64,000 nucleotides of DNA from Stylophora pistillata (Eukaryota), in assembly GCF_002571385.2 (NCBI RefSeq), contig NW_019217800.1:1295854-1359853 (forward strand). The letters run 5' to 3'. The notes under the pieces were generated by a model. It was given only the letters and a program-made list of their open reading frames with translations. It was not told the origin of the DNA and made no database searches. The position numbers and the translations under genes were made by a program. Positions 18,965-41,134 of this stretch are shown here, in pieces. Every line of letters begins with the position of its first letter. Position 1 is the first letter of the stretch.

Positions 18965-19666
18965 ATGGATGCAAACTCCAGCGACGGCAGAATTATTGTT
19001 AATATCGCAAAGAAGAAACTAGGCGGAGTGGGTTTTGTGACGAGCAAGCGAAGCGAAAGTCCTTACCTCGTTGTGTCACACGTCGTTAAGGGAGGAGTAG
19101 CTCACGAGACGGGTTTGATACAAACTGGGGACGTCATTCTTGAATTGAATGGGAAGTCTCTGGAGAGCCTGCCCTACCATAGGGCGCTAGAGATTATCGA
19201 CAAAGTCCCCACCGGGGAGGTGATGGCGATCAAACTACGTGCCCAGGACGGATTTCAAGCGTATCTAGAAACGGTCTTTGACGACCAAGGTGCTGTAAAG
19301 ACGGTGCGAAAAACCAGGCCACAAACGCCAAAAACTCCAAAAGCTAACAAGAACGTTAACGGAGAGTTAAATGGTGAATCACATTCCGGTCAACCGCAGA
19401 CCACGCAAGTGGAGCCAGTTTCTACCATTGAAGAAGACACAGGAAAAGAGCCCCACGATGACAACGAACCTGAAGCGCCAACGTCTCAAAATATTACCAA
19501 CGGACATCCAGACAACGAACGTGAAATAGTCAAAGAGTCACCAGAATCCAAAGGATGCCCAGTCACCAACATTTTATCAAAACCGCAAAATCCAAAATAT
19601 GTCAGGTTACAGAATCTCCTCGATGGCAAGTACACGACAGACACACTACATCAAATGGCCATGATA
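18965..19666 (+). CDS. NOS: NOS exon 1 (coding): PDZ domain, beta-finger and linker
   Basis: Acceptor ttttccag ends 18918; in-frame TGA upstream of AAAATGG; GGVGF carboxylate loop, LETVF beta-finger, TDTLH; donor ATA|gtaagt. Confidence 0.95.
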
Positions 19667-22600: not shown

Positions 22601-25600
22601 TTTAATGATAGTAAAAGATAAAGGAGAACAATTTTTGGTAACGTTGATTGTGCTGTCTGAGTCGACAGTTTTTAAACAAACACGAACTTAATTTTACTGG
22701 AGCTTAGACCGTCAAAGTAAATTTCAGTTCTATTCAAACTTCTTCACTGCTGAGCTATTGGAATGATTAAAGGCTGATAGTTTCGAAAGAAACTGTTTGG
22801 GGCTGCGTCGGTGGGAATAACGAAATAATTTGGATATATCAACAAAATTGAAATGGTAAATTGGCCACCGTAACGATTACAAAAGCTGACGTTTCGAGCG
22901 TTAGCCCCTCGTCGGGGCGAAGGGCTAACGCTCGAAACGTCAGCTTTTGTAATCGTTACGGTGGCCAATTTACCATTTCAACTTTGTTGATATATCCAAA
23001 TTATATTGGAATGATTGCTTCGTGTTTATGTCCTTTCGTTTTTACAAGAAGTCTTTTCATTTGTTATAGGTATTTGACGCTCGACATGTGAATACACCCT
23101 CCGAAATGTTCGAGGCTATTTGTAAGCACATAAAGTACGGAACAAACAAGGGAAATATCAGGTGATTATGAAATATTTACGTTGTATTTAAGTATTTTTG
23201 TTGGTTCTATAAGTGTTTTCAATATCATAATTATCAGTAAAAAGAAAAAGAAATATTTAGGCTTTTCACTATTCAATAGCTTATTTGTCTCTGATCTATC
23301 ACCAGAACGTACATAACCGCACGCATCAACTTGCCACCAGATTGTCATATTGTTTGTGATTAGAGAGAGTTATATTGCGCCTTTCATTCAGAGCAGGGGA
23401 ACTGTATTGCTAACCAGTTTCGAGTCAACAAGCAGTGATCTGATGTTTTGGACAGAAAATTAATGAATTTATAGATGTTGGCCTCTATCCAACCTCCAAT
23501 TCTCATGACATAATTCTAATTTCGCTGCCGCTCTTTCATACACCAAAATGCGTAGCAGTAAGTGCGCTGGAATCCAGGGCCCGGTTGTTCGAACGGTTGG
23601 ATAACGCTATCCACTGGATAAATCTCTCTCCTTTGGAAAGCGTTATATGCGCTTTGAACAATTGGGCCTAGACCGAGAAATTCGGGTTTCGAGTCTTAGC
23701 TGGGTCATTGTGCCCTCTTCATTTTTGTTTTGCTTCTCTCCACCCGGGAATATAAATGAGAACATGTAAACTCTTGGGGAAAATTTGAAATAACTATTTT
23801 GAAGTGACCAGTGGGTAATCATTTTGCTAATCATTTGAATTTGTCTTGTTTTGTCGTTGCATCTCTTGATCTAAGGTCCACGATAACGGTTTTTCCTCAA
23901 AGGAAGACTTCTTTCAAAGACTTCCGCGTGTGGAATACACAGCTGATTCGTTATGCTGGATATAAAAAACCCGACGGTTCGTGCATTGGAGATCCTTCAA
24001 ACATTGAGTTCACGGAGGTAAAAATGGATTTGGCTCCGACAAACTTGCATCAGTTCCAACAAATGCAAAACTAGTTTGGGTTTTGCTCTTTCGATTTCCT
24101 TTGAGTCTTCTGTGCTTGTCAGCTGTGATTTGACGGTTCTAGTTACTTGTGTTTTGTTTTTAAGACAGTATGTTTTCAACAGATTTGTCAGACCCTTGGC
24201 TGGGAAGGAAAGGGAGGTCCTTTTGATGTTTTGCCTTTGATTCTTCAAGCTAACGGTGGAGAACCCGAAATGTTCGAGATTCCGCCTGAAATCGTACTCG
24301 AAGTGGAAATAAAGCACCCAAAGTAAGTCTCAGACACAATCGATTGTAATGGCAGATATTTTTAATAATTGCTGTTTGTTAATAGCACAAGGAAGTCAGG
24401 GGGAAATTTTCTGTGTCTGAAGAATAATCTTCCAATGTCACCATAAGTAACCGCGGATCCTTACATGTCTTGCTGCCTAGCTAATCAACGATGTATTTTC
24501 CTTGACACCATTAAGTGACGCATCTGTTTTTTTTTTTTTTATGAAGACTTGTCACATAATTCTGGAGAAAATTTGTCAGTATCAACGACAAAGATACTGG
24601 CCGAGGAAATTCTGAGTGGTTGAAGAGAAATTCCTCTCTAACATGAATTACTCGGCCTGTCAGTTTTTTTTCAAAGTTTTATGGCCAGCCATTTTCACTT
24701 GTCAAGAGTAACTGCTAAGAAAACTTTTGATGTTCCAGAATTAACTCGTCTTCATTCGTAATCACCTTCAGTGGTCAATACATTTAAAACGAATTCTGTG
24801 TGAACCTTCCCCTTTTCGCGACCCTGCCTGACCCTCCCCCAGAAGTGATCAATTTGTAACTTTTCCTTACCATATGATCGTCTCTGCCAAGGTATCCGTG
24901 GTTTGAAGAGCTGGGATTGAAATGGTATGCGCTTCCCGCAGTCTCTTGTCTTTGTCTTGATGTCGGAGGAGTAGAAATACCTGCATGTCCCTTTAATGGC
25001 TGGTAAGAAACAGAATACTATATGAGTAATTCTAAACCAAACACGAAAAAAGAACCAAATAAAGTCTGGCTTAAATTTTTGATTAAAAAAAAAAAAAAAT
25101 TGGTTTTCGTTTACCGGAATGTAAATAACACTGGACAGTTGTATTAAAAAGCGCTAGGTCATTTTATCGCTGTCTGTATCCATTTTCATAGGTACATGGT
25201 TACAGAAATTGGAGCACGAGATTTCGGTGATACAAACCGATACAATATGCTTAAGGTAGGTTACCCACGAAGAGAGGTAACAGAGACCATAATATAAGAA
25301 TTGAAAACACTCACCAAATATATCATTTATGTAACACTTGTGATACAAATTAAATTTTCATATGAAAAGTTTTATTTCTATTCTGTTCTTAACTCACTTT
25401 AAAGAGTTTTTAGTTTTGCTTTTTGTCTTCTCCCGCTCTCTTCCAAAGCCCGTAGCGCTGCGTATGGGTCTGGACACTAAGAGTAATGCTTCTCTCTGGA
25501 AGGATCTCGCTTTGGTGGAACTTAATCTGGCAGTGATGCACAGCTTCCAGGTTTGTCTGGACGATAACTCTTTCCACTTTAGCCAGTTACCACTCAAGTG

Positions 25601-28060
25601 GCTATGAGTGTTTTACTATTAGAAAATCGTACGAGTTTGAATACGTTTTGATTTAAGGAATGTTCATGTCTCCATTATTTCAGAGGGTCTAAAATTACAC
25701 AGCGTAACAAATGCATGAGCTGTTTGTTGTATAAATGTTCTCGTCAGATTAAGTTAAACGAGTAACTTTTCCACAATTTCGTTATTTCTCTTCAAGGAAG
25801 CTGGAGTTACAATGACTGATCACCACAGCGCTTCCGAATCTTTCTTAAAGCACCTTGAGAATGAGGTTCGTGGTCAGTTTGTTTGTTTGTAAACTGAAAG
25901 CTTAATTAATATTTATACCACTGAGGGTTCCCCTTGGTTAGGAACATTTGGGGGGCAAAGAAAATGGTTTAAGACATCGAGGGCCAGAGTTATCCTAGGT
26001 AAGTTCACACTTCAGAGATTTCAAACTAGGGGGATCTTGCACCGACCCAATATTAGTTGGAAGAATACCAAATCTATTTTAGTTGTCATCAATCATAAAT
26101 TCTCCTTGACAGAGAGGGGTAACATTCATCTTGAGATAATCTAACCTTCCTTTTAGCTACGGGGCTCTGTCGCAAGTTGAAAGAAAGAATAAATTGTGAC
26201 AAACCAATATCGATGTCTCTGAATTACCTTCAAGATCACACTATTCGCCAAAAATAGTATCTTGACTTTGAAGGTGGCATTGACCATCTTACTTAAACTG
26301 ACACAGGTAAAACTTCGTGGAGGCTGCCCGGGAGACTGGGTGTGGATTGTACCTCCCATCTCAGGCAGTGCTACGCAGGTGTTTCATCAGGTTAGTTCAT
26401 TCTAAAGTAACCATTTGACCAGTCGAGAGAGCTTAAAAATGATATCTCTAGTTTAGGATGCAAAGGGATCCAGATTGCGTGCCAAAACGTGCATGAGTGG
26501 GGTCCTGTATCCTCGGGGGCTTTGAATATTGCACCCCAAATTTCAGTTCATTTTATTTCCATCTCTGCTGTCCACGGTACCCCCTTGGTACTCCTGACGA
26601 TAATTGACGTTCCTTTCGTCTACAGGAAATGTTAAATTACACTTTGAAACCAAGCTACGAATACCAGGTTAGTCATATTAACTTAAAATCGAAATCTCTT
26701 ACGCGCACTTAGATATCATGTGTATTAAATGTAAATTTGGAATGAACGGATCGACCAATATGGCGTCCCATTAGTCAGATGTTTTAAAAGTTTTAGTGTA
26801 TTTCTCAGACTTTTCTCAATTATTAAATGTTCCCCGCCTCATGATGATTTCAAAGAAACTATTATGTTATGAAAAATGATGCTCAACTCTCTCAACTGGC
26901 ACATCTCTGTGAAGCTCATGATACTCTTTTCCAAGAATGAGATTTCCTAACCTAGGTTTTTCTTTTGTTTGCTTACGCCTCAAGATTGATGATAATTATT
27001 GTTGTGTATTCCAGGACGATCCTTGGAAACACTATTCAATAAAGAAAGACACGTCTAGCGATTCTCCAAGGAAGAAAGCTTCCTTTAAGGAAGTAGCAAA
27101 GTAAGTTGAACGTACATGATTCATCGGCGCAAACGAGTAGAACGTACACAGTTCTTGCCATGAACCTGATGACAAGAACTATGTTAAAGAGTCCTTTCTT
27201 GCGGTAGTTCACTACTGCTCTCAGTTAATGTTCGTGAAAAAGTCCTCACAACGTTTCTTTTGATGAATATGTAATGTGAAACACTATGTGAGGGTAAAGT
27301 CACATAGCATGTCACAGCAGGCAAACAGGTCTGATCAAAGTGTAGAGTCCTTTGTAAAAGGAGAGAAAGAGGAAGAGGAATCAGGTAAAGCTTTTACTTA
27401 CGCCTCTGTTCCACCTGGAATTATCTAAGTGAAGACCACGGTTCTCCAGAATATGGTAGTTTCTGTTGTTAGAATCAGATATTTCTTATTGTTTTCTCAC
27501 TAATGAGATGAACTAACTCATAGCTGTAACTACATTTTTGCAAGAGATCTATAATTATACAGCTTCATCTTTCAACTTCGAGAACCGTTGATGTTGTTCA
27601 CAATTGATCAGCATTCTACATTGACTTGGGCTGGTTAAGGTCTATTCCAGCCAATGCTTTCATTTCAGTGTCATCCTTCGATGAACAGGAGGGTTACATT
27701 TTTAGCACTGAAATCTATGCTTACCTCCTTTTTAGGGCAGTTAAATTTTCTGCTAAACTATTTAGCAAAGCTTTGGCTAAAAGACAGAAGGCCGTCATCC
27801 TTTATGCAACAGAAACAGGAAAATCAGAGCGTTACGCCAAGATGCTCGGAGAACTCTTCTCTCATGCGTTTGATCCGAAGGTTAGGAAAGTTTGATTTTG
27901 AGATAATGTATGCCGACGAGGAATGTGAGACTTAAGTCGCTCACAGAATGCTTAACTTAGTTACTTGAAAAGTTAGAGGTTTCATCGTATTTCAATCATG
28001 CTTGTCGAGTTTGTAAATTGTCATAGTGAACGAGCGCTTTTAGAGAAATAATTATTATTA

Positions 28061-28097
<37 letters not shown>

Positions 28098-28113
28098 GCT
28101 TGTTATTGGTTTG

Positions 28114-28145
<32 letters not shown>

Positions 28146-28196
28146 TATAATATCAGTACTTTGTAACATCCGGTTTCTTCTTACAAAATAAAGTTT

Positions 28197-28229
<33 letters not shown>

Positions 28230-28297
28230 TTTTTTTAATTAAACATCTATTCCATCGCGCTTGTTGGATATGAGATGATTATAACCAACTCGGCGCT

Positions 28298-28347
<50 letters not shown>

Positions 28348-31300
28348 ATAATTGTTAAATACCGTTTTACTATATGTATTTCACAGGTTGTTTGTATGCA
28401 GGACTACGCCCATCCTGAGATGGAGAATGAACAGCTTGTCCTAATTGTAACTAGCACGTTTGGAAACGGAGACCCTCCTGAGAACGGAGATGTAAGCCAA
28501 AGTTGAAGTGCCATTCTCTCACACTTTACAAACATTGTGGACTTATTAGCATTGACACATAGAATATTCTCTATAAGTACTCCCCCCCTTATCGCTATCT
28601 TGAACTAGATGAGATGTAAGTGAGGCCTATTCATTCTACCTTACCACTTATAGGGATATCATGACCCTCACAACAAACTTTTCAAATTAGGGGGCATGCA
28701 AACCTTTGTAACCTCTACATCACCCAGTAGCCAGTACCCAATGATCCGGATTTTTGCTGAAATGTGCATCTATGTTTTCTCCCCAGGAATTCGCTCGTTA
28801 CTTGTACGAACTCCGCCATCCACCAGATGGGTAAGTTAAATCTTATTACGTTCAACTATTTTTCCTTGATTACCTTCAAAAGGCAAACATCCTGATGCAC
28901 GCTAAGCAGAGAACAGACGGTGGCACAGCCCTAGAAGCTAGTTCAATGTTTACTTTTTCTTTAATCAACAATTATGTTTCGTCCTAAACAAACTTTCAAA
29001 AGCCTCTCCTTACAGTTCTTATTGTTATTATTATCATTATTGTTATTTGTAGTATTATCATTATTATTACTGTTATTTCGCTCAAAAACTAATAGTTAGA
29101 TAAATGATGCAGATTATTTTTAATTTTATTTCCTCGATGGTACATGTCTTTTAGAAGTCGATCGTCGCGCAACATGATGAAACAACTCGGCAGCCTGTTG
29201 ATTCAAAAAGAGAAGGAAAAAAGAATTGATTTAATGAACAACAGTCAACCACTTGCTAACCTCAGGTAATCATACATAAAAAGAGACACAATCAGAAATT
29301 CCTATACTAGTAATTGTTTTAAATCATATATTAGACGAACCACGTTTAGTGGATCTAGCTCCTAACTAAAGAGCCAGTGTAATCGAAATGTTTAGAATTC
29401 GAACCAGCTTTGAACAAAATCAAATACAGACAACATTAAGCGACAGGGGTGCAAATGAAATAGAAGTGTATGGAGGTCCAAGATTGGAGTTTTTCTCCTT
29501 CACGAACAAAGACCCCATAGTTCGATTTGCACGATTGGTTGCTTTTTGTTCGATCTGGCTCATTGAAATCATCTTTTACGACATGTTTGTTTTATCGAAT
29601 GTTATTTTATGTGACGGAAGAGAAAAGTGGCTTCTTTATAATGCGCAGACTATGATGACATACCTATTTTTTAACCTTAAAGGTACTCTGTGTTTGGCCT
29701 GGGCTCCAGGGCTTACCCAAACTTCTGTGCATTTGCGCGTTCGCTTGATAAGATCATCCGGGAACTTGGAGGAGAGCCCGTGTTGAAGATGGGAGAAGGG
29801 GACGAGTTGTGTGGTCAAGAGGAGTCGTTCAAATTGTGGGCCAAAGACGTATTTAAGGTAAACAATAACGCTTACTGAACAGTAGCATTACTGGCTCGCA
29901 CGCACGTTAAGTGTTAACTTACTGGTAGACTCACCCTGACAGCTGCTTTATTCTTCTCAGAACGAGCTAAAAACTATTAAGAAACGAATTTAGATAAGGT
30001 TACTAAAGAACTTAATCACGGACATTTTTTAGACGTGAACGGCAGCTGGGCGTTGAGTGTCCTTGGGTTTTCCTATTGACTGTCGATGGTTAAAATGCTC
30101 CAAAAGCAGTTGTCTTCAACTGCCGGTCAATTCATCTTCTCTAATGGTCCTTAGATGTTAAATTCCTCACTATTACTCAGTGCATCAATCTTTGAATCCT
30201 CAGGCCGCTTGGGACTCATTCTGTATCAGTGACGAAATAACAAACGAAGCCAGTCAATCTCTGGACACAGTGCCAAGTGGCTGGGTACCAGGCCGCTTTC
30301 GGCTTGCGAATGTTATGATCTCCGCCGTGAATGCTTTCACTGAAGCGGTTGATGGACCGGACGGACACAATGAAATTATCCGAGGTAAGAAATGTGTTCA
30401 GCGGCCATTTTATTTTCATAAATTATTAGCTTAGCTTCTCATTATAAAGACGAAGTATACTTCAAACACAATGTAATATTTTCATCGCTATTAATTTCAG
30501 GTGTGTTGGACAATTGTGACACTAAATACGTTTCCAGAAATAAGGAAAATTATGAGGGGTTTGAAAAATATACTTCTTCTTTAATTAACCCTTGAACTCT
30601 CAAGATCTGAGGGAAATTCTCCTCTCTAGCTGCTACGCATTTTCATTTTAAATCAGTTACGAGAATTTGGTGTTAGATCGAGATAACATCTCCTGCCGGA
30701 TAAGTTTGAGCATTTTCACTACCTGTTTGCTGGATAACTTACGGATATTATGGGCAAAAGTTACGTGTGAATCACTTCTGGGAGTGTAAGGGTTAACAGA
30801 TTTTTGAAATAGCCACAGATGATTATTCAGCGATATTTATAGTTGCAATTTGACTCAAATACTTGCCAAGGACAAGAGACTGCAATCGCGCACAAAGTAG
30901 ACCAAATTCCAAGTTTATGATATATGATATTTAAATAATCTGTCACTTTTCTTGCCATCCAATATTTGTTTGATCTCTGCTTGTCTGTGTAGGTTTGACT
31001 CATATTTGTGGAAAAGCAGTGCGATCTGCGACGTTATTATCAGTTAAGAATTTACAGTGTCCTGAATCCAGGTCAGTGAATGAGTAAAGAAGTTTTTTTC
31101 TACCTTTTTGATTCGCAAGAATCTCCTTTTTGCGTCCTGAAAAGTCAAACAAAATAAGTATTAAAACCCTATATATATATATATACGCCTATAGCCCGAG
31201 CAAGGGTATGTCCACAGCTTTAACTGTGGGGCTGCACCTATGATGACGACACTGCCTGGCGCATGGGAAGCGTCCCTTGGCAAGGTACTCTGTTGATCGA

Positions 31301-34300
31301 TGACACAGCAAAGCTGAGATGATCGCAGAGAAGATCGTTGCATAACACCCACCCATCCCACCCCAGGGGAGGACATCCACCACACATTAATCTTGTACGT
31401 GGGAAATTAACGTCTCCTACCCCTAACCCTGCAGGAGACGGGGCCTACGGTGTACTCGTCCTTATCCTAGAAGACTAAAATATCTATCCATTTCTTGGTA
31501 TTATAGAAAGGTAGCGAATTCTCCTCAGTTATTTTAAGGCGATGAGTATTGGTCCGACCGGGGCTCGAACCCTCGACCTCGCGCACAACACAATCCCCGT
31601 ATTACAAACGCTTTGAGGGGGTAGTTGTTGTGCCAAAGGGTGGTGATAAGGCTTGAAATGGAGATCGTCACTAATGTATGTGCTTCATTCAGTTACACTG
31701 AGTTAGCAGAAAAAATGTCATGGCGAATATCCTCATACTCACCGCAAGTTCGTCGTTTTCCGTCGTCTGATTGTTAAGTGGAATCATCGTGATTCCACGA
31801 TTATGTGTGATTCCACGATTATGTATGATTCCACGATGATGTGTGATTCCACGATGACGTATTAGGAGTTGAGTGGTGTATAAACCCTAACAATTTTAAG
31901 TCATATGTGTGAAACAATGAAGAGATTCTACTGAAGTTAGGTATGGTCTGTTCGAAGCTCCTGATGGCAGTAAACTGACTCGAAAATTATAGGGGAAAGC
32001 AAAAAAACATAAGCAAGAAGAGAACACAAAATGAAACACAAATAAGTTACATGCGTTATATTCGGAATGAAATGAAGATATAATGTAATTGTTTGCGTGA
32101 CAGAACTGAATAATTTATTTATTTACGTCAGAAGACCTATTTCGTTATGAAATGTGTCAGAAAACAGATACTAATTACCCATGACGTAACCGTCAAATCT
32201 CATTGCCACTATAGTAAAAAATATTTTGATTGTTTCCTTGCCGACAAGGTTATAGATATTGGGTTGCTGTCTGACCGTACGTCATGGAGTGGGTAATTGA
32301 TGTCGGTACGAGATTCAAAAGGCCAGGGTGGCAAAAGAATCTGCCTATAATAAAGGAAGATCTAGTCTGAATGTACAACCAAATAATTTAATAGCGTTAC
32401 ATTGTAAACTAAAAAGGTTTTGGCAAGAATTGTGGGTCGTTTCTGTGTAAAACGATGAAAATTGGTAATAGGTAAAGATCTCGTGAGGCTTCGCATTTAC
32501 GTCACCATCGTTCACTAGGTCTTCGCCAAACAGACTAATTTCACCTAAGGGAGGTCTGGTGCGATTATATGACCAAAAAATTTGGCCGAGAAATTAAGCA
32601 GTGTAGCCTAAAAATTCGTGGTAACAAATGTAGAAAGTTACTGTGTCAAACCTTTTTCAATTTGATCCACAAAGAAATAATTTGATAGGCTTCACATTTA
32701 CGTTGTTCCTGTTGACTCTCGGAATACCAAACACCTTTGATGTCATCCAATTAAAATATTAAAATGCATCCAAATTAACAATTCTCAATTTTTCCAACTC
32801 ATAAGAGTTTTCTAGTTGCTCCCTGAAATTTCAAAGAATATGAGCCGAAAAACCCGCACTCAAACGATGATGGAGTTATGTGAGGCTTTCCAAAAAAGAG
32901 ATCGATGCCTTTCTTCAGAAGGTACTGGTGTTAGGTCATCGAAACTGCCCAAAGGGGTTGTCACTCAGACTTCGTTGCACAAAATTGAAGACTGAAACAT
33001 CGAAGTTTCCCTGTTACACTTCGTTCCCCAAGATTCAAGAAACACCAATAGTTTCTTGTGCTACGCTGTCAACGAAGTGTGGAGAACCACCGCTGGTTGC
33101 TAACTCCTCTTCTCAGAATATAGAAGGGGAGCAGAAGGAGGCCTGTTGACTTGCATTCAAAACTCTCAAGATAAATACACTTCGTTTGCCTGCAATCGAT
33201 GAACGGCGAGTGAGAGAGCTCAGTGGTAGTTTGGTTCAAGATCAGTGTCCTGTCAGAGATAAACAGGTTGAAGTCCCCCGCCGAAAAACAACACAGCGTC
33301 AAATCTCTCGAATCAAACATCCACAAGATCAACAAAAAAAGAGTCGAGAAGAGGTAGTGGTAGCTAAGCCGGTGTCAGTACGTGGGAATGTTACTGTCGA
33401 AGGTCCGAGGAGAAGAAGGTCTCCAGCAGTCCAGAATGAAAGAAAGATCTCCAAGCCTACCTTAGTATGTCAAACGCGAGTAGCAGTTAAAGTGTCCAAG
33501 CGTGAAGGGGGACAAGGTGGTCGTGGTACGATCAACAAAAAGTTCACACCTGGAGAACACGAACTTTGGATGCCACGAGCCTGGGTGAGTATCTATACAA
33601 CCTGGATCAATAAAGAAAAAACAGAGCGTTGAGGGACAGCAGATCACGAAACAGCAGCAGAATTTGACCGAAAACCAAATGCGACCCGAAAGTAGAAGAG
33701 CTGCGCCTTTGGTTCAAGTTTTGTGCATGCGCAGAGTTGGTCGTCAGGTTGTGACTGGTAATATGAAGATCACTGATAGAAGGAATGGACTCTGCGCCCA
33801 GACAAACCCTAGTCAAGAACACTTGACGTTTCTACGTGTTTTACGGAAACGATTCTAAATTAGCACTGGGGTTTTCCGTTATCAACTGCAAAATTTTCTT
33901 TTTTTTATGCTCAAAAATACCGTTGTATATATATTGTAATTTTCGATCGATTGACCATCGTAATCCGGAACAAGGTTGATTTTGGTTTACTCTGTCTTAA
34001 GCAATCACACTCGGTCAATTTTCCTACCCTTCAGCCTTTTGATAGGTTAAAACTGGTGTTTACCTTCTTTCTGATCAACTGTTGTGGCTATTTGGTTTTT
34101 TTATTTTCGACCTTCGATTGATAGCCGCTTTAAAGAGCTAGTCGTTGTCCTAAAAGGGTCGTGAACAGGCTTAAAATGGAGTTCGCCATTGGGATATATG
34201 CTTTGCTCAGCCATTCTTCTAGGAAGATTTCGTCTCGAATATTTTCATATATAGTCAGCGCAAGTTGTTCGATTTATGTAGTTTAAATATTTAGTGTGAG

Positions 34301-37300
34301 TACTCCTCAGTGATGTATCATAAGATTTGACTGGTGTATAAACCGTTAGAGCTTTGAATCGTATTTATGCAAGAATAAAAATGATTCTACCAGGGTTCGA
34401 AGCTCTCAACAAGTGTCTCCCAATAATTAAGAGCGGGCTGACAAAAAAAATTTAAATCTTGTGGGTCATGACCTCCCTCAAAAGCATGACTGTCTGAAAG
34501 CAACAAGCTAACCAGTCATGGAATTTGGAAAAATGCTGTAAAGTTCAAGATCATAAATTCCTTAAAACCTACTAAAAGCAATCAGTGTTGTTCCCTTCCA
34601 AATTAAAATATTATAACGATGCCCAAAGATTGCTGTTGTCAGTTCTCTTCGGGAGCAACCACACAGGGAGACGAAATATCTTGAATAATGGCTGACAATC
34701 AGACAAATTATGACTCTATACCTTTTTACTTCTTTTAGTCGCTCGACCATCTCAGTCCAGCTCAAAACAGAGAACAGCACAGAATTGCAGTACAAACCAG
34801 GGGATCACGTGGCCATCTTTCCCGCTAATCGCCCAGAGCTGGTACAAGCTTTGATTGACGGGCTATCAGATGACGTCGATCCTGATAAGCCAATCGCTGT
34901 TGAGGCCTTACGAGAAGTCAAAGGTGAATGCAAGTTCAGTTAAAAGTAGTAAGATATTTTCAGTGACCAGTCAGTACGTCTTCTGGATGAGATACTAGCC
35001 AACCCAAAACCTTCCACAAGAATTTCGTCCAGTTTCCACGACAGTTCGCCGGCCCCCGTCCTTACTCCTGGTTAGAAAGAGGCATTGAGAGGATGTAGTA
35101 TCTTGCTTAGAACACACTACAAATTACATAGTGCAAACGAGTAAGGTTACAAAAGGTAACAATTTCATTACGATTATTACCTTAGGTATTCTAAAAACAG
35201 CCAAGAAATGGGAAGTTTTCACCCGTCTTCCTTCACAAATTACACTGCGTCAAGCTCTCTCGCGTTACCTAGACGTTACGAGTGTTCCTTCACCACAGAT
35301 CCTGAAAGCTTTGTCTGCTACGGTAAACTCTCAACTTATTATAGTGATCCAGAATTCCTCCACAGTTCATTCGTAGAATAACTGACTCCTCTTGCTACAG
35401 CTATTACCTGTGCTTTTTGCTGTAGTTCCTTCTTACCTCACTGACACTCAACTTCAAGTTGAAACAGCTGAATGAATCCTTCTACAGCGGCGGTGTGTTC
35501 CTTGTCGTTTGCGTTCAAGGGCAAGGCTATCTAATGCATTTGCAGTACATTGAGCCCCGAATATCTCGAACTTTCCTGTAACTCGGCGGCGTACCCAGGT
35601 TGGGATGAGTGTCATTGTGTCACTGTTAATTTCGTTGGGTTGTCTGTGGGATCCCAGTGTCTCAAACCAGTCTTGTTTGTACCTCGTTCATTGATAATAT
35701 CTCATTTCCACTTCTTTGTTTGCCTGTACTTCTGACCTACACTGAACTGAGACATTTCCATTTTAAAATTATTTTAAAATGTCTACACTTGTTTAGGCTA
35801 CTGACCCAGCAGAAAAGGAAAAACTTGAAATTCTTAGCCAGGTGAGGTGTTGGTAATTTTTTTATTTTTAAGTTAAATCATACAATAAAAAAAACTCCGT
35901 CTTTCGCTCGTTTACATTTGTATATGTCCTTCTAAGTTCTCAACTTAAGTCTTCCTCTACAACACTTTGGTATTTTTTTCATTTCTTTTTCTCTCAGGGT
36001 AATAACCGATACGAGGACTGGAAGTTTGAAAGTGAATGTAACATTCTTGACGTGCTACAAGAGTATCCCTCCTTACAAGTTCCAGCTGACTTATTACTCA
36101 CTCAGTTGCCTTTGTTGCAGCCGGTAAGTCACACTGCTTGCTAGGTCAGCAAGCAGTTATACTGAATCATTCAACTTTTTACGGTGCAACCGCCCCTCTC
36201 CCCTCCCCCCCCCAAAAAAATTGTTGGGATCATAGGAATTGTGTAGAGGGAGTGAAGTCCGAGTTTTAAAACCCGTCTCAATGGGACTGAGATAAGACGT
36301 AAAGTTTGTTTTTACTCCACGTGAAACTCCGTTACGCGTTACGAGCCCACTCAAAGAGCAAAGATCTCCAAAACAATTCTTGTAAGTCCAGCGTGTCTAC
36401 CTCACTCAAAGCTATGACAAACGCTACTTGGAGACTTTTTTAATCTCCTCTCACAAATTACTACGATCTTTGTCAGAATAATTTCTTTGTTATCAACAGC
36501 GTTTCTACTCCATCTCATCATCGCCAGACTTTTTCCCAGGTGAAGTTCACCTGACGGTGGCAGTGGTACAGTATAAGAAGAGAGGTAAGATATTTGAGTT
36601 TGAAGTATCGAGAAATCACAGTTTTAATGCACTTGATTCATTGTCAATGAAGGTGATAGATTGATAGATGTGAAACATTGTCCAAGTATTACAACACAAT
36701 ACGAGAGAGCGTGTTTAATTGGAGATTCTTCTCTGGACAATAGAGGCCAAGTTGTGCTTTTCACGAGCGCTTCGGAAGTGATTACGAAGTTCTTTTCGTC
36801 TCCGTGCGGCCGAAGAGACATAATCTCGCGTCAAGAGTTTAATTTCCCAGCATTTTCCGGCACATTGGCAAAAATAAAGTAGTTTTTGGTTCGTTCTGTC
36901 CAGTATATACTAAATAAATATTCCCCTCAGTTGGTGTCATCTCGATATCACACCAAGCACACCAACTATTTGACAGTAAAATGTATAGTTGGTTAAAGGG
37001 AGGATTACAATATGATTCATATATTATGAGTTTAAGGGTTTACTATTGTATTCTTCTGGTGCTGTTTGCAACCTGATATATTTTGCGAATTTCTCTCATG
37101 GAATGTCTTGGTAACTCTGCTGCGTTACGTCTTAGATGGAAAAGGTCCCATACATCATGGCGTTTGCTCCACATGGTTAAACAGTTTGCAACCTGGAGAC
37201 AAAGTGGCTTGCTACGTGCGGCAGTAAGTCATGTCTCAACTTATTTTGCGTTGTGAAACTCAGTGAATTTAAAAACGTTGCTATGTACTGATTATGCGTG

Positions 37301-40300
37301 AAGAAGAATGGCTTTACAGCTCAGAACTTCGCCTCAGGACAGTACACACCTTTACAAATGAAGCAGCAAGAGACCACGTCCGATGTGGATCAGATATGTG
37401 TTAGACATTTGAATGTGTGCAAATCTGAGCACTTTTTTAAAATGTTTGAAAAAGAAATTTTTTATCTTTGATTAGCAAACATAATGAGGAGCGAAGTCCC
37501 CTTTCACCAGGTTACTTATTTCCTTTGTCGTAGAGCCCAAACCTTTCATTTGCCCGAGGATGGATCGGTCCCAGTAATAATGGTTGGGCCTGGGACTGGT
37601 ATAGCTCCATTCAGAAGCTTTTGGCAACAGCGCCAGTTTGACGTCGTGAACACAAGTGCTCCCAAGCCAAGGACGATGGACGTCACTCCGGACTCAAGCC
37701 CTCTGATACAGCGTCGAAACTTTAACTCCCCGGAAACGACTCCTCATACACGACATCGTTCCGTCGGCGGAAGCCCCTCTTTACAGCGCCAACTCTTTTC
37801 AGAAAAAGAACAAAACGAGAACGCTTCAAACCCTTCGTCAGGAAAGTGGGGTGAAATGTTGCTGTTTTTCGGATGTAGAAACGCTACTCAGGATTATATC
37901 TACAAGGATGAAATGGCGGAAGCGAAAAACGATGGCGCGTTGACTGAAGTATGGACAGCTCTCTCACGTGAACCAGGACAGCCAAAGGTAAGCAAATATT
38001 TTTTAGAGGCAAATTATCCTTTAGCTCCTCAACAAATGCGAACACAACAAAGTAAGTTCAAGTTAGCCTTGCTGCATTTCCATTTTTAATAGTGAGGAAA
38101 ATGAAAGAATGTCAAAACAGCTGCTGTTTCTTTCTTCTAAGTGGTACATACACTTGGCATTTTACCGTTGACAATAAAGTAACTTCGAAGTAGACCAGTG
38201 GCTGTTTTCTCTAATATGTATATCTTTAAAACGTTTACGTCACCTCTTCAAATTTGCAGGCTACTTTTTTATCCAAACGATAGATAGATAGAGAGATAGA
38301 TAGATAGATAGACGTTTATTAAGAATACCTTAATAGCAGCTGGAAGCTGAGTTGCAAAGCTGTACAAATTATGTAATAGAACTATACAATAAAATCAAAC
38401 CTAAAAGGGAACTAATTTATATATACAATTATCATAAATGTCAGTTAAAATGTCTTGCGCTTACTGGAATGAAAGTATCTCTGAACCGATTTGTTTTAAA
38501 GGAAACTCTAAATGGTCTGCGTCGTCGTAACTACATAAGTTGATCTCGGTTATCGAAAGGCAGTAAGTGGTACAAACAAGCCAAGGGATTGGAGACGATC
38601 TTGTTAGAGAATTTTAAGCAAAGGTCTTCTCTCCGATCCCTAAGGGTTATGAACAATTTTATCTTACATAGCCAATCTCATTTCGTACATATTTCAGAAA
38701 TATGTTCAGGATATGTTGAAAATGGAGGCGTTTGACATTTGTGACAAGCTGCTGAGTCAGCGAGGACATTTCTACGTGTGCGGCGATGTTTCAATGGCTG
38801 AGGATGTTTGTAGAACACTGCAGGTAATCCCGTCACTATAGTAAAGTTTACTTGCACTGCGCGCGTAATCGAAGTGCTCGTAAATAGGACTGTGCCTGCC
38901 AGTTCTGAACACAAATTTTCCTGAGTGAAAATTTCAGCAAAGGCGTGGGTTGCGAATGAAGAGGTTGCTTTTCTTATCCTACACTATTAATATAGAGAAT
39001 ATCAAATTACCATGGCGACGGTCAGATTCTATAGTGTAGGTACTGTGAAGCGAGTGCGCGCCTATTCTATCTCTTGTTGCAATCCACCTGGTGGTATTCG
39101 CTTCTAATCAAACGTTCCTCTGTCAAAGGAAAACTCAGTAACTTTGAAAGTTTATTGGACACAAATAACGCATCTGCGAGGTTATCGGGGGAGGATTTAA
39201 GCTTCTAAGAACGGGTAAATATTATGCGATCTGATCATCAGATAATTTCGCTTTGTTTATTGTTTTTAACCTCCTCAGACCCTCTTACAAGAATACGCCG
39301 CCATGTCTCAGCAGGAAGCTCAGGACACAGTAAACAAAATGAAGGTAAGGTGTGCATGTTGTATTCTTTGGGAGCACGATGTGCCATGCGGACAACTTAC
39401 AATTGAGGGGAGTGCACACCTGAAAAATATGTTACGCTCCTTTGGGTTTGGTTTACTCTAATCGCATGAAGGTATTGGAATTCCTTGTGTTCCCCAGTTT
39501 TGAGCCCCCTCTCAAAAATTAGAAAAAATGCGAAGTTACTGTTCCAGCAAAGCGGGACTTTTTGTAAAAAGTTATTGTGATAATATGTCAAGTGCATTCT
39601 CATCCTCCGCCGGTGGCTAACGCAAAAGAAAATCTTGTAGACCTGTTAAATTTTATGTATCGGTGTGCATGCTGCAAAATAGAAAAAAATAACAGAAACG
39701 AAAACTTTTGCCGTTACTTTAAGGAATTCAGTCGCTTACATAATTTAGTAAGATCAATATTCTATCTGTCAGCCGATGTTTTTGGTCTTGTCGCGCAAAA
39801 GCCCGCTCCCTCAGAGAACGGCAGCAAGAGAATCAAACAATCAAACATAGAAGATTCTTGTTTATCTTTTTCAGAGTTCCGGCCGATATCATGAGGATAT
39901 TTTTGGAGTAACTTTGAAAACACGAGAAGTGACTGACCGCGTCCGAACCGCAGCTAAAAGGTTGGTTAGTAGAATGATAGCTAAGGAAGTAAACTGGTTA
40001 AAAAACTCAACGGATTTAATTTGACATTGGTTCTCGTCAGTTTTTTTGGAGTTTGCTGTAAAGAGTTTACAAAAGTTTTACAACCAACTGACCAATACAG
40101 ACTTTCCATGAATACAAAAGACTGCAGCGCCGTTGTTCCCATCTTTAAATTTAAAAGCCATCCTCCTTAAACCAACATTCCCTTCCTGTTCGACGATTAA
40201 ACAAACAAACGCCTGTTTAGACAATTCTCGTCTTTTTTTCACTGACAAGGCTACTTAAGATTCACGGTTGTTCTGTACTCTTTCGACAGATCTTGGATGT

Positions 40301-41134
40301 ATCTAAGGACTTCTAGTAAAATGAGGGTGAGTAATAAGTTGTGCTTTAAATACCCATTAGAGTGACTAGCATCTAATTTCTCCTTACAATATCACCGCTG
40401 AATCAATCATTAGAGTCACGAGAATAAAGAAAATGGTCACCAACTAAAGAAGCTCTTGATTGTTAAACAAATTCTAAGGCTTTAAAGCGCTTTGAGGAGT
40501 AGGTTATGTATGAATTTTGAAATGTCTTTTAACTTTAGATAAGTCAGCACAATTTGAAGCCGCGCGCGCCTACTATTACCTTGCCCGTGGACAGAGATGA
40601 AGCAGAAGGCACAGCAGTGTGAGTACGTCAGTCGGTAAAACTGCAAATCATACACGTACGTACACTCATTCTTCCTCGTACATTATAGACTTTGTTGTCT
40701 GTTTGTTGTAACCGCACGAACGTGAGGATTTCTCCAGAAGAGGGGTAACAATTGCGCGCTCTGCTCCATGTTCTTCCGTGCATGCATGATACAATAATAT
40801 GCCTGTAGATATTTACCACGCACTCTTATGTCTTTCTCACATGCAACGGTTATAACTGGCTCAAAACAAGAAGACAACTTTAAATCCTCGTCATACGTAG
40901 TTGTGAACTAAACCGTCAAGTACTAATCGAAAACCGGTACTTCAATTCAATTTAGTTACTAGCTGTGGCTGGCACCCACTAAAACGTTCTTGGCACTATA
41001 TTACAGATCTCGCTCGGTATCTTTGGGATTTGTTTGAAAAATAGAATCGTGTACCTCCGTTCTACACCATATACATTTTTTTTTTCAGTCAAGACTCCAC
41101 AAGAGGAAGAACTTATTCAACTCCAATGCAATAG
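18965..41134 (+). CDS. NOS: Nitric oxide synthase, PDZ-containing nNOS(NOS1)-like, 33 coding exons, ~1451 aa
   Basis: join(18965-19666,21043-21200,21872-22034,23070-23161,23876-24017,24183-24322,24892-25002,25192-25255,25449-25550,25797-25865,26307-26390,26626-26667,27015-27100,27736-27880,28387-28491,28787-28830,29155-29265,29683-29857,30204-30384,30993-31071,34739-34923,35186-35322,35797-35841,35998-36123,36500-36584,37136-37223,37534-37987,38698-38823,39279-39344,39875-39960,40290-40326,40539-40618,41089-41134). All introns are GT-AG and phases are consistent. Hallmark motifs: [92 protein letters not shown]. The last three exons are less certain. Confidence 0.95.
20565..21015 (-). mobile_element. 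5'-truncated Penelope-like retroelement (GIY-YIG C-terminus and pLTR with hammerhead motif) in NOS intron 1
   Basis: Minus-strand ...[28 protein letters not shown]...GINERFSFH*; 9-bp direct repeat ccaacagca at 20556-20564 and 21016-21024. Confidence 0.85.
20690..20730 (-). ncRNA. Minimal type I hammerhead-ribozyme motif of the Penelope pLTR (variant core)
   Basis: Minus strand GCU-CCGACGA-AGGCCUAACGCUC-GAAAC-GUC-AGC, with palindromic ACGU stem III. Confidence 0.6.
21043..21200 (+). CDS. NOS: NOS exon 2: Zn-tetrathiolate CxxxxC ([11 protein letters not shown]) and AKDFLQQYY
   Basis: ttttcag acceptor, CT|gtgagt donor. Confidence 0.95.
21872..22034 (+). CDS. NOS: NOS exon 3: heme-ligating Cys ([18 protein letters not shown])
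   Basis: poly-T cag acceptor, CAA|gtacgt donor, 163 nt. Confidence 0.96.
22067..22268. mobile_element. piggyBac-like MITE (CCCTT...AAGGG), degenerate; related partial copy at ~40350-40475
   Basis: Terminal ccctttaatcccca / agggtgtaaaggg; body shared with 40350-40475. Confidence 0.6.
22366..22550. repeat. ~27-bp tandem repeat, ~7 copies (gattttggccactagtggccgattttg-like)
   Basis: Direct inspection. Confidence 0.85.
22769..23003. mobile_element. Penelope pLTR fold-back (inverted duplication) with 13-bp TSD in NOS intron 3
   Basis: Same sequence as 20576-20723; inverted arms 22826-22913 and 22916-23003; TSD tattggaatgatt at 22756-22768 and 23004-23016. Confidence 0.85.
23070..23161 (+). CDS. 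NOS: NOS exon 4 ([31 protein letters not shown])
   Basis: atag acceptor, AG|gtgatt donor, 92 nt. Confidence 0.95.
23577..23669. mobile_element. Short MITE with GGCCCRGTTGTTC-type terminal inverted repeats
   Basis: gggcccggttgttcgaa ... tttgaacaattgggcc. Confidence 0.6.
23876..24017 (+). CDS. NOS: NOS exon 5 (STITVFPQR...[14 protein letters not shown]...[11 protein letters not shown])
   Basis: Conserved oxygenase motifs, 142 nt. Confidence 0.95.
24183..24322 (+). CDS. NOS: NOS exon 6 (ICQTLGW...[12 protein letters not shown]...EIKHPK)
   Basis: acag acceptor, AA|gtaagt donor, 140 nt. Confidence 0.95.
24892..25002 (+). CDS. NOS: NOS exon 7 ([18 protein letters not shown]...PACPFNGW)
   Basis: Conserved motif, TG|gtaaga donor. 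Confidence 0.95.
25192..25255 (+). CDS. NOS: NOS exon 8 ([21 protein letters not shown]), contains the substrate-binding Glu
   Basis: catag acceptor, AAG|gtaggt donor. Confidence 0.95.
25449..25550 (+). CDS. NOS: NOS exon 9 ([34 protein letters not shown])
   Basis: Conserved SLWKD motif, 102 nt. Confidence 0.95.
25797..25865 (+). CDS. NOS: NOS exon 10 ([23 protein letters not shown])
   Basis: Conserved DHH motif. Confidence 0.93.
26307..26390 (+). CDS. NOS: NOS exon 11 ([28 protein letters not shown]), BH4-binding
   Basis: acag acceptor, CAG|gttagt donor. Confidence 0.95.
26626..26667 (+). CDS. NOS: NOS exon 12 ([14 protein letters not shown])
   Basis: tacag acceptor, CAG|gttagt donor. 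Confidence 0.93.
27015..27100 (+). CDS. NOS: NOS exon 13 (DDPWKH...[11 protein letters not shown]), start of CaM-binding helix
   Basis: ccag acceptor, AA|gtaagt donor. Confidence 0.93.
27736..27880 (+). CDS. NOS: NOS exon 14 (AVKFSAKLF...[11 protein letters not shown]...HAFDPK), CaM helix and FMN phosphate loop
   Basis: Flavodoxin motif, 145 nt. Confidence 0.96.
28061..28358 (-). mobile_element. Palindromic non-autonomous element (same family as the 57264-57954 array) in NOS intron 14
   Basis: Reverse complement of the 297-bp unit; palindrome ggatatgagatgat...atcatctcatatcc. Confidence 0.75.
28387..28491 (+). CDS. NOS: NOS exon 15 (VVCMQDY...[17 protein letters not shown])
   Basis: FMN motif, 105 nt. 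Confidence 0.96.
28787..28830 (+). CDS. NOS: NOS exon 16 ([15 protein letters not shown])
   Basis: ccccag acceptor, GG|gtaagt donor; aligns to nNOS FGCALMEMRHP. Confidence 0.9.
29155..29265 (+). CDS. NOS: NOS exon 17: autoinhibitory-insert region ending PLANLR
   Basis: TAGAAG (NAGNAG) acceptor, AG|gtaatc donor; PLANLR matches nNOS PLANVR. Confidence 0.9.
29683..29857 (+). CDS. NOS: NOS exon 18 ([17 protein letters not shown]...[13 protein letters not shown])
   Basis: FMN motif, 175 nt. Confidence 0.96.
30204..30384 (+). CDS. NOS: NOS exon 19 (AAWDSFCI...WVPGRFRL...NEIIR), FMN-FAD hinge
   Basis: cctcag acceptor, G|gtaaga donor. Confidence 0.92.
30589..30792. mobile_element. piggyBac-like MITE with TTAA target duplication
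   Basis: TTAA 30585-30588 and 30793-30796; TIRs cccttgaactctcaaga / tctgggagtgtaaggg. Confidence 0.8.
30993..31071 (+). CDS. NOS: NOS exon 20 ([25 protein letters not shown])
   Basis: NLQ motif, 79 nt. Confidence 0.92.
31170..31600 (-). mobile_element. tRNA-derived SINE-like element in NOS intron 20
   Basis: Minus strand B-box ggttcgagccc, conserved-looking core ttaaaataactgaggagaa...ggataaggacga...cgtaggccccgtctc, (TA)n tail. Confidence 0.55.
31789..31857. repeat. 18-bp tandem repeat x4 (gtgattccacgattatgt)
   Basis: Direct inspection. Confidence 0.9.
32840..33858 (+). pseudogene. Nested intronless decayed gene of unknown family inside NOS intron 20
   Basis: ATG 32840 to TAA 33858 reconstructs to ~338 codons with two +1 frameshifts (~32981-32984 A-run; ~33590) and one internal TGA (33147-33149). 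Confidence 0.55.
34739..34923 (+). CDS. NOS: NOS exon 21 (RSTISVQL...[15 protein letters not shown])
   Basis: FAD-domain motif YxPGDH. Confidence 0.95.
35186..35322 (+). CDS. NOS: NOS exon 22 ([27 protein letters not shown])
   Basis: Connecting-domain motif. Confidence 0.94.
35797..35841 (+). CDS. NOS: NOS exon 23 ([15 protein letters not shown])
   Basis: tttag acceptor, CAG|gtgagg donor. Confidence 0.9.
35998..36123 (+). CDS. NOS: NOS exon 24 (GNNRYEDWK...[11 protein letters not shown])
   Basis: Conserved motif, CCG|gtaagt donor. Confidence 0.95.
36500..36584 (+). CDS. NOS: NOS exon 25 ([25 protein letters not shown]), FAD-binding
   Basis: RxYSISSS motif. Confidence 0.96.
37136..37223 (+). 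CDS. NOS: NOS exon 26 ([16 protein letters not shown]...VACYVR)
   Basis: GVCSTWL motif, 88 nt. Confidence 0.96.
37534..37987 (+). CDS. NOS: NOS exon 27: NADPH-binding ([12 protein letters not shown]...FFGCR...[10 protein letters not shown]) with large S/P-rich insert
   Basis: 454-nt open exon, AAG|gtaagc donor. Confidence 0.93.
38281..38530 (-). mobile_element. LINE (L2-like) 3' tail fragment with (CTAT)n microsatellite
   Basis: (gata)n at 38281-38311, AATAAA on the minus strand, residual [12 protein letters not shown]. Confidence 0.55.
38698..38823 (+). CDS. NOS: NOS exon 28 (KYVQD...[15 protein letters not shown])
   Basis: NADPH adenine-binding motifs. Confidence 0.96.
39279..39344 (+). 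CDS. NOS: NOS exon 29 ([22 protein letters not shown])
   Basis: ctcag acceptor, AAG|gtaagg donor. Confidence 0.92.
39875..39960 (+). CDS. NOS: NOS exon 30 ([28 protein letters not shown])
   Basis: RYHEDIFG motif, AG|gttggt donor. Confidence 0.94.
40290..40326 (+). CDS. NOS: NOS putative exon 31 ([12 protein letters not shown])
   Basis: ctttcgacag acceptor, AGG|gtgagt donor, phase fits. Confidence 0.7.
40539..40618 (+). CDS. NOS: NOS putative exon 32 ([27 protein letters not shown])
   Basis: ctttag acceptor; GT|gtgagt donor overlaps an in-frame TGA (40620-40622). Confidence 0.65.
41089..41134 (+). CDS. NOS: NOS putative terminal exon ([14 protein letters not shown])
   Basis: T10-cag acceptor, phase-2 fit, TAG 41132-41134. 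Confidence 0.6.

What the first reader, a model, noticed from the sequence alone, without database searches (positions are those of the whole stretch)
39875..41134. Rewired NOS C-terminal tail: Akt serine lost, splice choice between a PDZ ligand and a new RxRxxS site
Seen: the canonical tail site reads RVRTAA (eNOS RIRTQS, nNOS RLRSES), so Ser is replaced by Ala. Three small phase-compatible exons extend the tail. At 40617-40624 the sequence GT|GTGAGT is both a consensus donor and GTG TGA. Unspliced, the protein ends ...EGTAV* (class I PDZ ligand T-x-V). Spliced to 41089, it ends ...[15 protein letters not shown], a complete Akt-type RxRxxS motif (also 14-3-3-like RxxSxP). Inference: the phospho-switch moved to a distal alternative exon, mutually exclusive with a scaffold-binding end.
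Basis: partly seen in the sequence, partly recalled or inferred. Interest (0 to 1): 0.7.

Follow-up and report, generated by a model that had tools for sequence, protein, structure and literature searches.

The report
Coral NO synthase: ancestral long tail
This coral nitric oxide synthase has a spliced tail extension that ends in a likely kinase site, and some transcripts keep the last intron and would stop just before that site; but the 'missing' serine is the usual state outside vertebrates, and the scaffold-binding end is likely a coincidence.

Summary
The gene is a 33-exon, 1451-aa PDZ-type NOS of a stony coral. Raw RNA reads show all tail joints (39960>40290, 40326>40539, 40618>41089), and about 7-8 reads from perhaps 4 fragments run into the last intron, against 12 spliced in the same three runs. 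(1) The Akt serine was not lost: Ala (or Val) at the S1412 position is shared by sponge, placozoan, anemone, coral, jellyfish, amphioxus and bivalve NOS; Ser is fixed only in lamprey and nNOS among my rows. (2) GT|GTGAGT doubling as a stop is ordinary: 9 of 11 phase-2 donors of this gene do it. (3) T-x-V is not kept in merulinid corals (IQA*). (4) The distal site is the real find: R-x-x-S/T lies in the last 15 residues of 12 of 15 long-tailed non-bilaterian NOS (3.3 expected) and 0 of 20 others; strict RxRxxS only 2 of 15, most hexacorals have hydrophobic-x-R-x-x-S. It is likely an old terminal kinase site, not a relocated Akt switch. Phosphorylation, binding and a short protein are untested.

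The parts
18965..41134 (+). PDZ-type nitric oxide synthase gene, 33 coding exons, 1451 aa (long form)
   Evidence: Model from tblastn and GT/AG fitting, no internal stop, 1157 of 1451 residues identical to P0122; only the last four joints were checked with reads
18965..19666 (+). First coding exon with the N-terminal PDZ domain
   Evidence: PF00595 E 2.7e-12, over cut-off
39875..39960 (+). Exon A: end of the NADPH domain (YHEDIF) and start of the C-terminal helix
   Evidence: Joints in 4 of 4 runs; aligns to rat nNOS up to 1411
39938..39955 (+). RVRTAA; the Ala at 39953-39955 sits at the place of nNOS Ser1412
   Evidence: inside a predicted helix in two relatives
40290..40326 (+). Exon B (37 nt), continues the helix (KRSW motif; K/R-K/R-A/S-W in sponges, anemones, bivalves)
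   Evidence: Joints on both sides in 4 of 4 runs
40539..40618 (+). Exon C (80 nt)
40563..40589 (+). Mid-tail motif RAPTITLPV, a degenerate copy of R-x-P-T-[IV]-T-[VL]-L shared with sponges, anemones, a placozoan and echinoderms; partner unknown
   Evidence: Block aligned by MAFFT across 17 of 21 rows (the relative P0299 stood in for the window); low-confidence, not packed in two monomer models
40617..40624 (+). Phase-2 donor GT|GTGAGT; if unspliced gives V then TGA (40620-40622): short form ending TAV*
   Evidence: Sequence; read-through reads; same property in 9 of 11 phase-2 donors
40619..41088 (+). Last intron (470 nt), partly retained in RNA
   Evidence: Sense-strand depth 0-5 in raw runs, patchy; upstream intron bins 0
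41089..41134 (+). Exon D coding part; RGRTYS at 41102-41119, Ser codon 41117-41119, stop 41132-41134
   Evidence: Joint 40618>41089 in 4 of 4 runs; RERTYSNP in relative P0299
41135..41640 (+). 3' untranslated region, transcribed at least to 41640
   Evidence: Sense depth 4-46; end not mapped

Best explanation
This is a stony-coral PDZ-type NOS whose helix carries the widespread non-vertebrate Ala at the S1412 position and whose spliced tail ends in a likely old basophilic kinase site (R-x-x-S, four residues from the end), while a minority of transcripts keep the last intron and would give a protein 14 residues shorter without that site. Shown: exon use, the two RNA ends, the Ala state across phyla, the enrichment of terminal R-x-x-S/T. 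Predicted: the helix runs on through [10 protein letters not shown] and the rest of the tail is disordered. Inferred: the helix damps electron flow as in nNOS but cannot be released by phosphorylation at the S1412 place; phospho-control is instead likely read at the tail end by basophilic kinases (CaMK/AMPK/PKD type in most hexacorals, where -5 is hydrophobic; Akt/SGK/RSK-compatible here, where -5 is Arg), likely through a binding partner such as 14-3-3 and not through direct repulsion of the FMN domain. Intron retention would remove that input; the T-x-V it leaves is most likely incidental.
For: Joints and read-through. In run X24 the 14 laid reads split into 7 that carry exon-B letters and 7 on exon D, so the 2 reads entering the intron carry the B>C splice (inference; lengths fit): RNA, not DNA. 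Ala/Val in all 17 listed sponge, placozoan, hexacoral PDZ-type and jellyfish/Clytia rows with the RxRxx helix, amphioxus NOS P0016 and several bivalves; Ser in lamprey and five nNOS rows, plus Hydra, one Tubulanus copy and Owenia. R-x-x-S/T in the last 15 residues: 12 of 15 non-bilaterian long tails (3.3 expected by shuffling) and 0 of 20 bilaterian or unnamed; without the window 6 of 7 hexacoral rows (1.5 expected, P 5e-4) and 5 of 7 one-per-lineage rows (1.3 expected, P 0.0035). AlphaFold models of two relatives: helix 691-722 in P0003 and 960-984 in P0009, tail beyond mostly pLDDT under 50; P0003 superposes on nNOS 1TLL out to residue 1413 (Z 40.5, rmsd 3.2, 574 aligned). Short forms ending at the same place exist in three merulinid entries.
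Against: Pattern, 15-residue limit and the bilaterian split were chosen after seeing the tails, the rows are related, and many tails are unverified gene models, so the P values overstate. No R-x-x-S end was seen in the Orbicella cluster (15 of 83 members listed; ends IQA* and IQAVKDRR*), nor in Rhopilema or at the placozoan end. Retention rests on 7-8 reads, perhaps 4 fragments; against the upstream junction Fisher P is 0.001 by reads but 0.10 by fragments, and depth is 0 over 40665-40917 in the three runs. No phosphoprotein, binding or activity data exist here. Arthropod NOS, eNOS and iNOS were not among my aligned rows.
Confidence: 0.5

Rival explanations
1. There is one functional protein, the long form; the intron-containing reads are unfinished nuclear pre-mRNA of a slowly spliced last intron and no short protein is made.
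For: Few fragments; three of the four raw libraries are labelled random-primed; patchy intron depth; weak exon side of the donor (T at -1, in 3 of 32 donors); a published record whose shown first 350 residues read identical by eye has a cell length that implies 1450 aa, near the long form (1451) and not the short (1437) (length rule checked on the Nematostella row).
Against: Upstream introns show no read-through in the same runs (0 of 26 reads at the exon C acceptor); three merulinid entries end at the same place, two of them complete 1450-1451 aa frames on 6.3-6.6 kb contigs, so likely assembled transcripts.
Confidence: 0.25
2. The tail beyond the helix is a drifting disordered extension; the terminal R-x-x-S is not used as a phosphosite and neither ending matters.
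For: Tails differ widely in length and sequence; low pLDDT; Orbicella ends lack the site; shuffled tails give R-x-x-S/T in 15-36% of cases; the four differences to P0299 all miss the four motif positions, but chance allows that about one time in four (my count: 330/1365).
Against: The Ser sits 3-6 residues from the end in corals, anemones, demosponges and Clytia (Thr there), well above shuffles, and a mid-tail block is kept from sponges to echinoderms.
Confidence: 0.15
3. One reading: a regulated splice switch chooses between a scaffold-binding class I PDZ ligand (TAV*) and an Akt/14-3-3 site that replaced the lost helix serine.
For: Both RNA ends exist; TAV and RxRxxSxP are both kept in P0299; three demosponge NOS end in a basic-x-x-S site followed at once by a class I ligand (ETII, ETVV, QTDV), so NOS tails can carry PDZ ligands.
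Against: No loss to compensate; stop-in-donor is the rule for phase-2 introns; merulinid short ends are IQA*; +1 is Thr or Asn, not the hydrophobic residue of nNOS/eNOS sites (RLRSESI, RIRTQSF per PMC3989272); strict RxRxxS in 2 of 15; the enzyme already has its own PDZ anchor.
Confidence: 0.1

Closest known systems
Vertebrate nNOS (NOS1; rat, PDB 1TLL, 8T1J) and eNOS with the C-terminal helix site S1412/S1177
   Same: PDZ, oxygenase, FMN, FAD, NADPH layout; [10 protein letters not shown]; a C-terminal helix in the same register. PMC3989272 (passages) places S1412 in the C-terminal helix and lists Akt, PKA, AMPK and PKD as its kinases.
   Different: Ala at the S1412 place and Lys at the R1400 place; the tail is about 73 residues after the Phe against 35, spread over three more exons; the basophilic site is about 50 residues further on, outside the predicted helix, so the nNOS release mechanism cannot be assumed.
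Long-tailed PDZ-type NOS of hexacorals, demosponges and placozoans (Acropora P0008, Nematostella P0007, Actinia P0168, Amphimedon P0191, Placozoa H4 P0043; surveyed for domains in PMC7400543)
   Same: RxRxA[AV] helix, following Trp in most, mid-tail strand motif, terminal R-x-x-S in most.
   Different: Arg at -5 and Pro at +2 here; hydrophobic -5 in 5 of the 7 other hexacoral rows; demosponges end in a class I PDZ ligand in the same chain as the site.
Merulinid coral NOS (Orbicella cluster P0003, P0121-P0123)
   Same: 88% identical over 1026 columns; a short and a longer ending that part at the same place.
   Different: Short end IQA*, long end AVKDRR* with no Ser; no genomic DNA was available, so which is spliced could not be shown.
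Alternative C-termini by last-intron retention (general class, recalled)
   Same: In-frame stop inside a phase-2 donor; no junction downstream, so no junction-dependent decay expected (general knowledge).
   Different: Regulation and translation not shown here.

Membership tests
Animal PDZ-type (nNOS-like) NOS | N-terminal PDZ domain | tested here: met
   PF00595 E 2.7e-12 on 18965-19666
Animal PDZ-type (nNOS-like) NOS | Oxygenase, flavodoxin, FAD and NADPH domains in one intact frame | tested here: met
   1451-aa model, 1157 identities to P0122, which carries PF02898, PF00258, PF00667, PF00175; PF00175 also on the window's own exon
Animal PDZ-type (nNOS-like) NOS | NO synthesis, Ca/calmodulin dependence | not testable with these tools
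   No assay; cnidarian host NOS activity is reported in PMC2861001 (first third read), not for this protein
Vertebrate NOS activated at the C-terminal helix (S1412/S1177) | Ser in RxRxxS inside the helix | tested here: not met
   Ala at that place
Vertebrate NOS activated at the C-terminal helix (S1412/S1177) | C-terminal helix in the nNOS register | tested here: met
   Predicted in relatives P0003 and P0009, pLDDT about 50-70; superposes on 1TLL to 1413; the window's own protein was not folded
Akt-type substrate site (RxRxxS-hydrophobic) | Arg at -5 and -3 | tested here: met
   RGRTYS in the window, RERTYS in P0299; 2 of 15 non-bilaterian rows overall
Akt-type substrate site (RxRxxS-hydrophobic) | Hydrophobic residue at +1 (preference recalled; Ile/Phe in nNOS/eNOS) | tested here: not met
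   Thr in the window, Asn in P0299
Akt-type substrate site (RxRxxS-hydrophobic) | Phosphorylation by Akt | not testable with these tools
   No data
PKD/CaMK-group site (hydrophobic at -5, basic at -3; PMC3989272) | Hydrophobic -5, Arg -3 | tested here: not met
   Arg at -5 in the window; met in Acropora, P0301, P0300, Desmophyllum, Nematostella. PKD does accept Arg at -5 in nNOS
14-3-3 mode I ligand (R-x-x-pS-x-P, recalled) | Arg -3 and Pro +2 | tested here: met
   Window, P0299 and Actinia; 2 of 15 rows in the count, 0.23 expected
14-3-3 mode I ligand (R-x-x-pS-x-P, recalled) | Phospho-dependent binding | not testable with these tools
   No phospho-residue modelling or assay
Class I PDZ ligand (S/T-x-hydrophobic-COOH, recalled) | T-x-V at a free C-terminus | tested here: inconclusive
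   Pattern met in the short frame; RNA seen; protein not shown
Class I PDZ ligand (S/T-x-hydrophobic-COOH, recalled) | Kept in orthologous short ends | tested here: not met
   IQA* in 3 of 3 merulinid short entries; TAV is present inside the long form of the close relative P0299
Calcineurin PxIxIT docking motif | P-x-I-x-[IV]-non-Pro (pattern recalled) | tested here: not met
   Window PTITLP fails strict and loose patterns; strict met in P0121, P0122, P0001; loose in 9 of 21 rows
Calcineurin PxIxIT docking motif | Docks on the catalytic-domain edge strand | not tested
   The complex predictor was not available
Regulated alternative 3' end | Mature, translated, condition-dependent second isoform | tested here: inconclusive
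   Retention about 0.3-0.4 with wide limits (0.08-0.64) in three runs

The most novel reading that the evidence does not exclude
Early animal NOS was phospho-controlled not at the helix serine but at a terminal R-x-x-S in a long disordered tail that also carries a conserved docking strand (possibly for calcineurin) and, in demosponges, an adjoining PDZ ligand; vertebrates dropped the tail and gained S1412/S1177 as a second solution, and stony corals switch the old site on and off by retaining the last intron, which would tune host NO output.
Probability: 0.2. Interest if true: 0.65.

Novelty: new variant of a known kind. Interest (0 to 1): 0.36.

Why it matters
That gives one testable residue (Ser codon 41117-41119) and one testable splice event for asking how host NO is controlled in corals, where host-derived NO has been tied to the algal symbiosis and heat stress (PMC2861001, first third read). 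I found no paper on these tail motifs in ten full-text searches, but the main NOS-evolution papers that I recall were not held and may already note that the Akt motif is vertebrate.

Tried and rejected
Read-through at 39960 or skipping of exons B/C: no depth and no such joint (joints under 3 reads are not listed). Donor-as-stop as design: rejected. Contigs of run X1: unspliced across two introns and 10 of 412 letters different, so DNA or pre-mRNA of a relative; not used for splicing. High depth at 40359-40475: a dispersed repeat, not an exon. Mid-tail motif as a strand of the enzyme's own fold: not placed with confidence in two monomer models; a dimer or PDZ contact was not modelled. Calcineurin docking: a calcineurin A stand-in was found (P0402; the edge-strand exon matches the coral's own) but the complex predictor was not available, so no verdict. 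Short end as ligand of the enzyme's own PDZ: nNOS PDZ prefers an acid at -2 or -3, the coral PDZ has the like Tyr by eye, and GTAV lacks the acid; not pursued. Wider coral sampling: the third homologue search gave only 8 hits among 44 candidates. IQ-TREE did not finish; FastTree used. Supplement of PMC7400543: sequence cells are cut, tails not visible. Earlier scan notes: none on this gene. Rows with tails under about 45 residues, second isoforms, vertebrates and short-tail paralogues were left out of the count (Solemya, at 24 after the helix, stayed in); four extra rows were printed but not counted, except Desmophyllum, which was counted from its last 43 residues.

Full report
Gene. The window holds a complete PDZ-type nitric oxide synthase on the + strand, 18965-41134. 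A model fitted to a merulinid homologue has 33 coding exons, 1451 residues, no internal stop and 1157 identities to P0122. The first exon carries a PDZ domain. On a FastTree of 50 NOS built without the tail it groups with Orbicella, then Acropora, then anemones. A second, short-tailed NOS lies elsewhere in the genome. A PDZ-NOS of Stylophora pistillata listed in the supplement of PMC7400543 reads identical by eye over the 350 residues shown, so the gene itself is already annotated.

Observation. Raw RNA reads from 4 runs of 2 studies, 2-6% of each run read, show joints 39960>40290 and 40326>40539 (3, 11, 6, 7 reads each) and 40618>41089 (9, 1, 3, 2); nothing reads through 39960. At fine scale, 3 of 3 raw runs have reads entering the last intron: mean depth 3.17, 2.0 and 2.0 over its first 23 bases, against 9, 1 and 2 spliced reads, and depth 0 in the intron bin before exon C. 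In X24 the read tally (7 with exon-B letters, 7 on exon D, 14 in all) implies that the intron-entering reads are spliced upstream, and the read lengths fit. The numbers are small: perhaps 4 fragments; retention 0.29-0.40 with limits 0.08-0.64; Fisher P 0.001 by reads, 0.10 by fragments, the fragment counts being my estimate. Depth is 0 over 40665-40917 in these three runs, though X23 has 0.35-1.5 over 40698-41021 and X21 about 4 over 40941-41055.

Is the donor special? No. A phase-2 donor GT[AG]A always gives an in-frame stop after one residue; 9 of 11 phase-2 donors of this gene do so, and 23 of 32 donors are GT[AG]A (upstream boundaries are fitted, not read-checked). The final Val is set by GT+G, and S/T make up 24% of the tail. 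In the Orbicella cluster three JGI entries end in IQA* at the same place and a RefSeq isoform runs on to AVKDRR* (15 of 83 members listed). So a short/long pair at this boundary may be shared between coral families, but T-x-V is not.

Was the serine lost? RVRTA aligns without gaps to rat nNOS RLRSE 1407-1411, so the next Ala stands at S1412. The same Ala (Val in Acropora, P0301 and Clytia) is found in four sponges, three placozoan rows, two anemones, the corals, Rhopilema, amphioxus P0016, Diadema and several bivalves; Ser is in lamprey and five nNOS rows, and in Hydra, one Tubulanus copy and Owenia, where the surrounding motif differs (65 rows, ungapped offset, so rows with indels are unreliable). 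On the tree the Ser rows form the lamprey+nNOS clade plus those three. A vertebrate gain is the simpler reading; no formal reconstruction was run and arthropods, eNOS and iNOS were not sampled. AlphaFold models of two relatives continue the helix through this motif (P0003 691-722, P0009 960-984) and leave most of the remaining tail under pLDDT 50; P0003 superposes on 1TLL to residue 1413.

The distal site. A close relative keeps R-x-R-T-Y-S-x-P with four other changes in the last 15 residues (P0299). More widely, R-x-x-S/T falls in the last 15 residues of 12 of 15 long-tailed non-bilaterian NOS (3.3 expected from shuffles, window included) and 0 of 20 bilaterian or unnamed rows (3.1 expected). 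Without the window: 6 of 7 hexacoral rows and 5 of 7 one-per-lineage rows, holding for limits of 10, 15 and 20 residues (P 6e-5 to 0.011). The acceptor is mostly 3-6 residues from the end: LKRAAS, LKRAVS, FVRASS, MRRAFS, IKRFPS, NQRRSS in hexacorals. Five of these have a hydrophobic -5, the PKD-type consensus given in PMC3989272; strict RxRxxS occurs in 2 of 15 and RxxSxP in 2 of 15. Misses: Orbicella, Rhopilema, the placozoan end. The test was framed after seeing the data and rows are related.

Mid-tail motif. MAFFT aligns a block R-x-P-T-[IV]-T-[VL]-L across sponges, a placozoan, anemones, robust corals and echinoderms; acroporids, P0300 and Clytia lack a clear copy. It resembles a calcineurin PxIxIT site (PMC8583826 passages; pattern recalled), but the window's copy fails the pattern and a 2.4%-divergent relative reads PTMTLL. 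The complex predictor was not available, so this is a lead only.

Mechanism. Shown: exon use, two RNA ends, Ala as the common non-vertebrate state, enrichment of the terminal motif. Predicted: helix plus disordered tail. Inferred: the helix restrains electron flow as in nNOS (PMC12932508 and PMC3989272, passages) but has no phospho-release; kinase input likely arrives at the tail end and acts through a partner; retention of the last intron would drop that input.

Literature seen: PMC7400543 (passages; supplement file 4 searched and part 2 of 18 read, cells cut), PMC3989272, PMC12932508, PMC5400507, PMC8583826, PMC4224125 (passages), PMC2861001 (first of three parts); the rest as search listings only. 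Ten searches found nothing on these tail motifs; two recalled NOS-evolution papers were not held, so prior notice of the vertebrate origin of the Akt motif is not excluded.

Verdict. Interest 0.36.

Noticed in passing
P0012, P0091, P0191 (demosponge NOS C-termini): All three end in a basic-x-x-S site followed directly by a class I PDZ pattern (ETII, ETVV, QTDV): a candidate phospho-regulated PDZ ligand on sponge NOS.
   Followed up: partly
window 40563-40589 and homologues (alignment A2): Mid-tail block R-x-P-T-[IV]-T-[VL]-L kept from sponges to echinoderms; PxIxIT-like; partner unknown.
   Followed up: partly
window 39938-39960 + 40290-40326: The helix continues as a basic amphipathic stretch with a conserved Trp (K/R-K/R-A/S-W) in sponges, placozoans, anemones, amphioxus and bivalves; it resembles a calmodulin anchor by recall only.
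   Followed up: no
window 40359-40475: Short dispersed repeat in intron B-C: 3053 first-look candidates in the genome, 40 scored at 85-94%; abundant in RNA on both strands.
   Followed up: partly
window 37650-37850 (within exon 37534-37987): About 65-residue Ser/Pro/Arg-rich insert in the NADPH domain (SSP, TTP, RHRS, GSPS), disordered in the relative's model (499-562): further candidate phosphosites.
   Followed up: no
G000:C393 (L037 2663-2788, minus strand): Second NOS paralogue with a short basic tail, no Ser at the S1412 place in relatives (Lys in P0024, P0020).
   Followed up: partly
window 46681-48321: Non-LTR retroelement remnant with a weak RVT_1 match below cut-off and an assembly gap.
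   Followed up: partly
window 53605-56102: GC-rich tandem arrays with periods of about 172-192 bases.
   Followed up: no
window 61543-62150 (minus strand): Frames that look by eye like fragments of a GIY-YIG/Penelope-type and an endonuclease-type retroelement (labels recalled).
   Followed up: no
G000:C339 (L020, L038): Calcineurin A gene of this genome; its edge-strand exon matches the insect stand-in P0402.
   Followed up: partly
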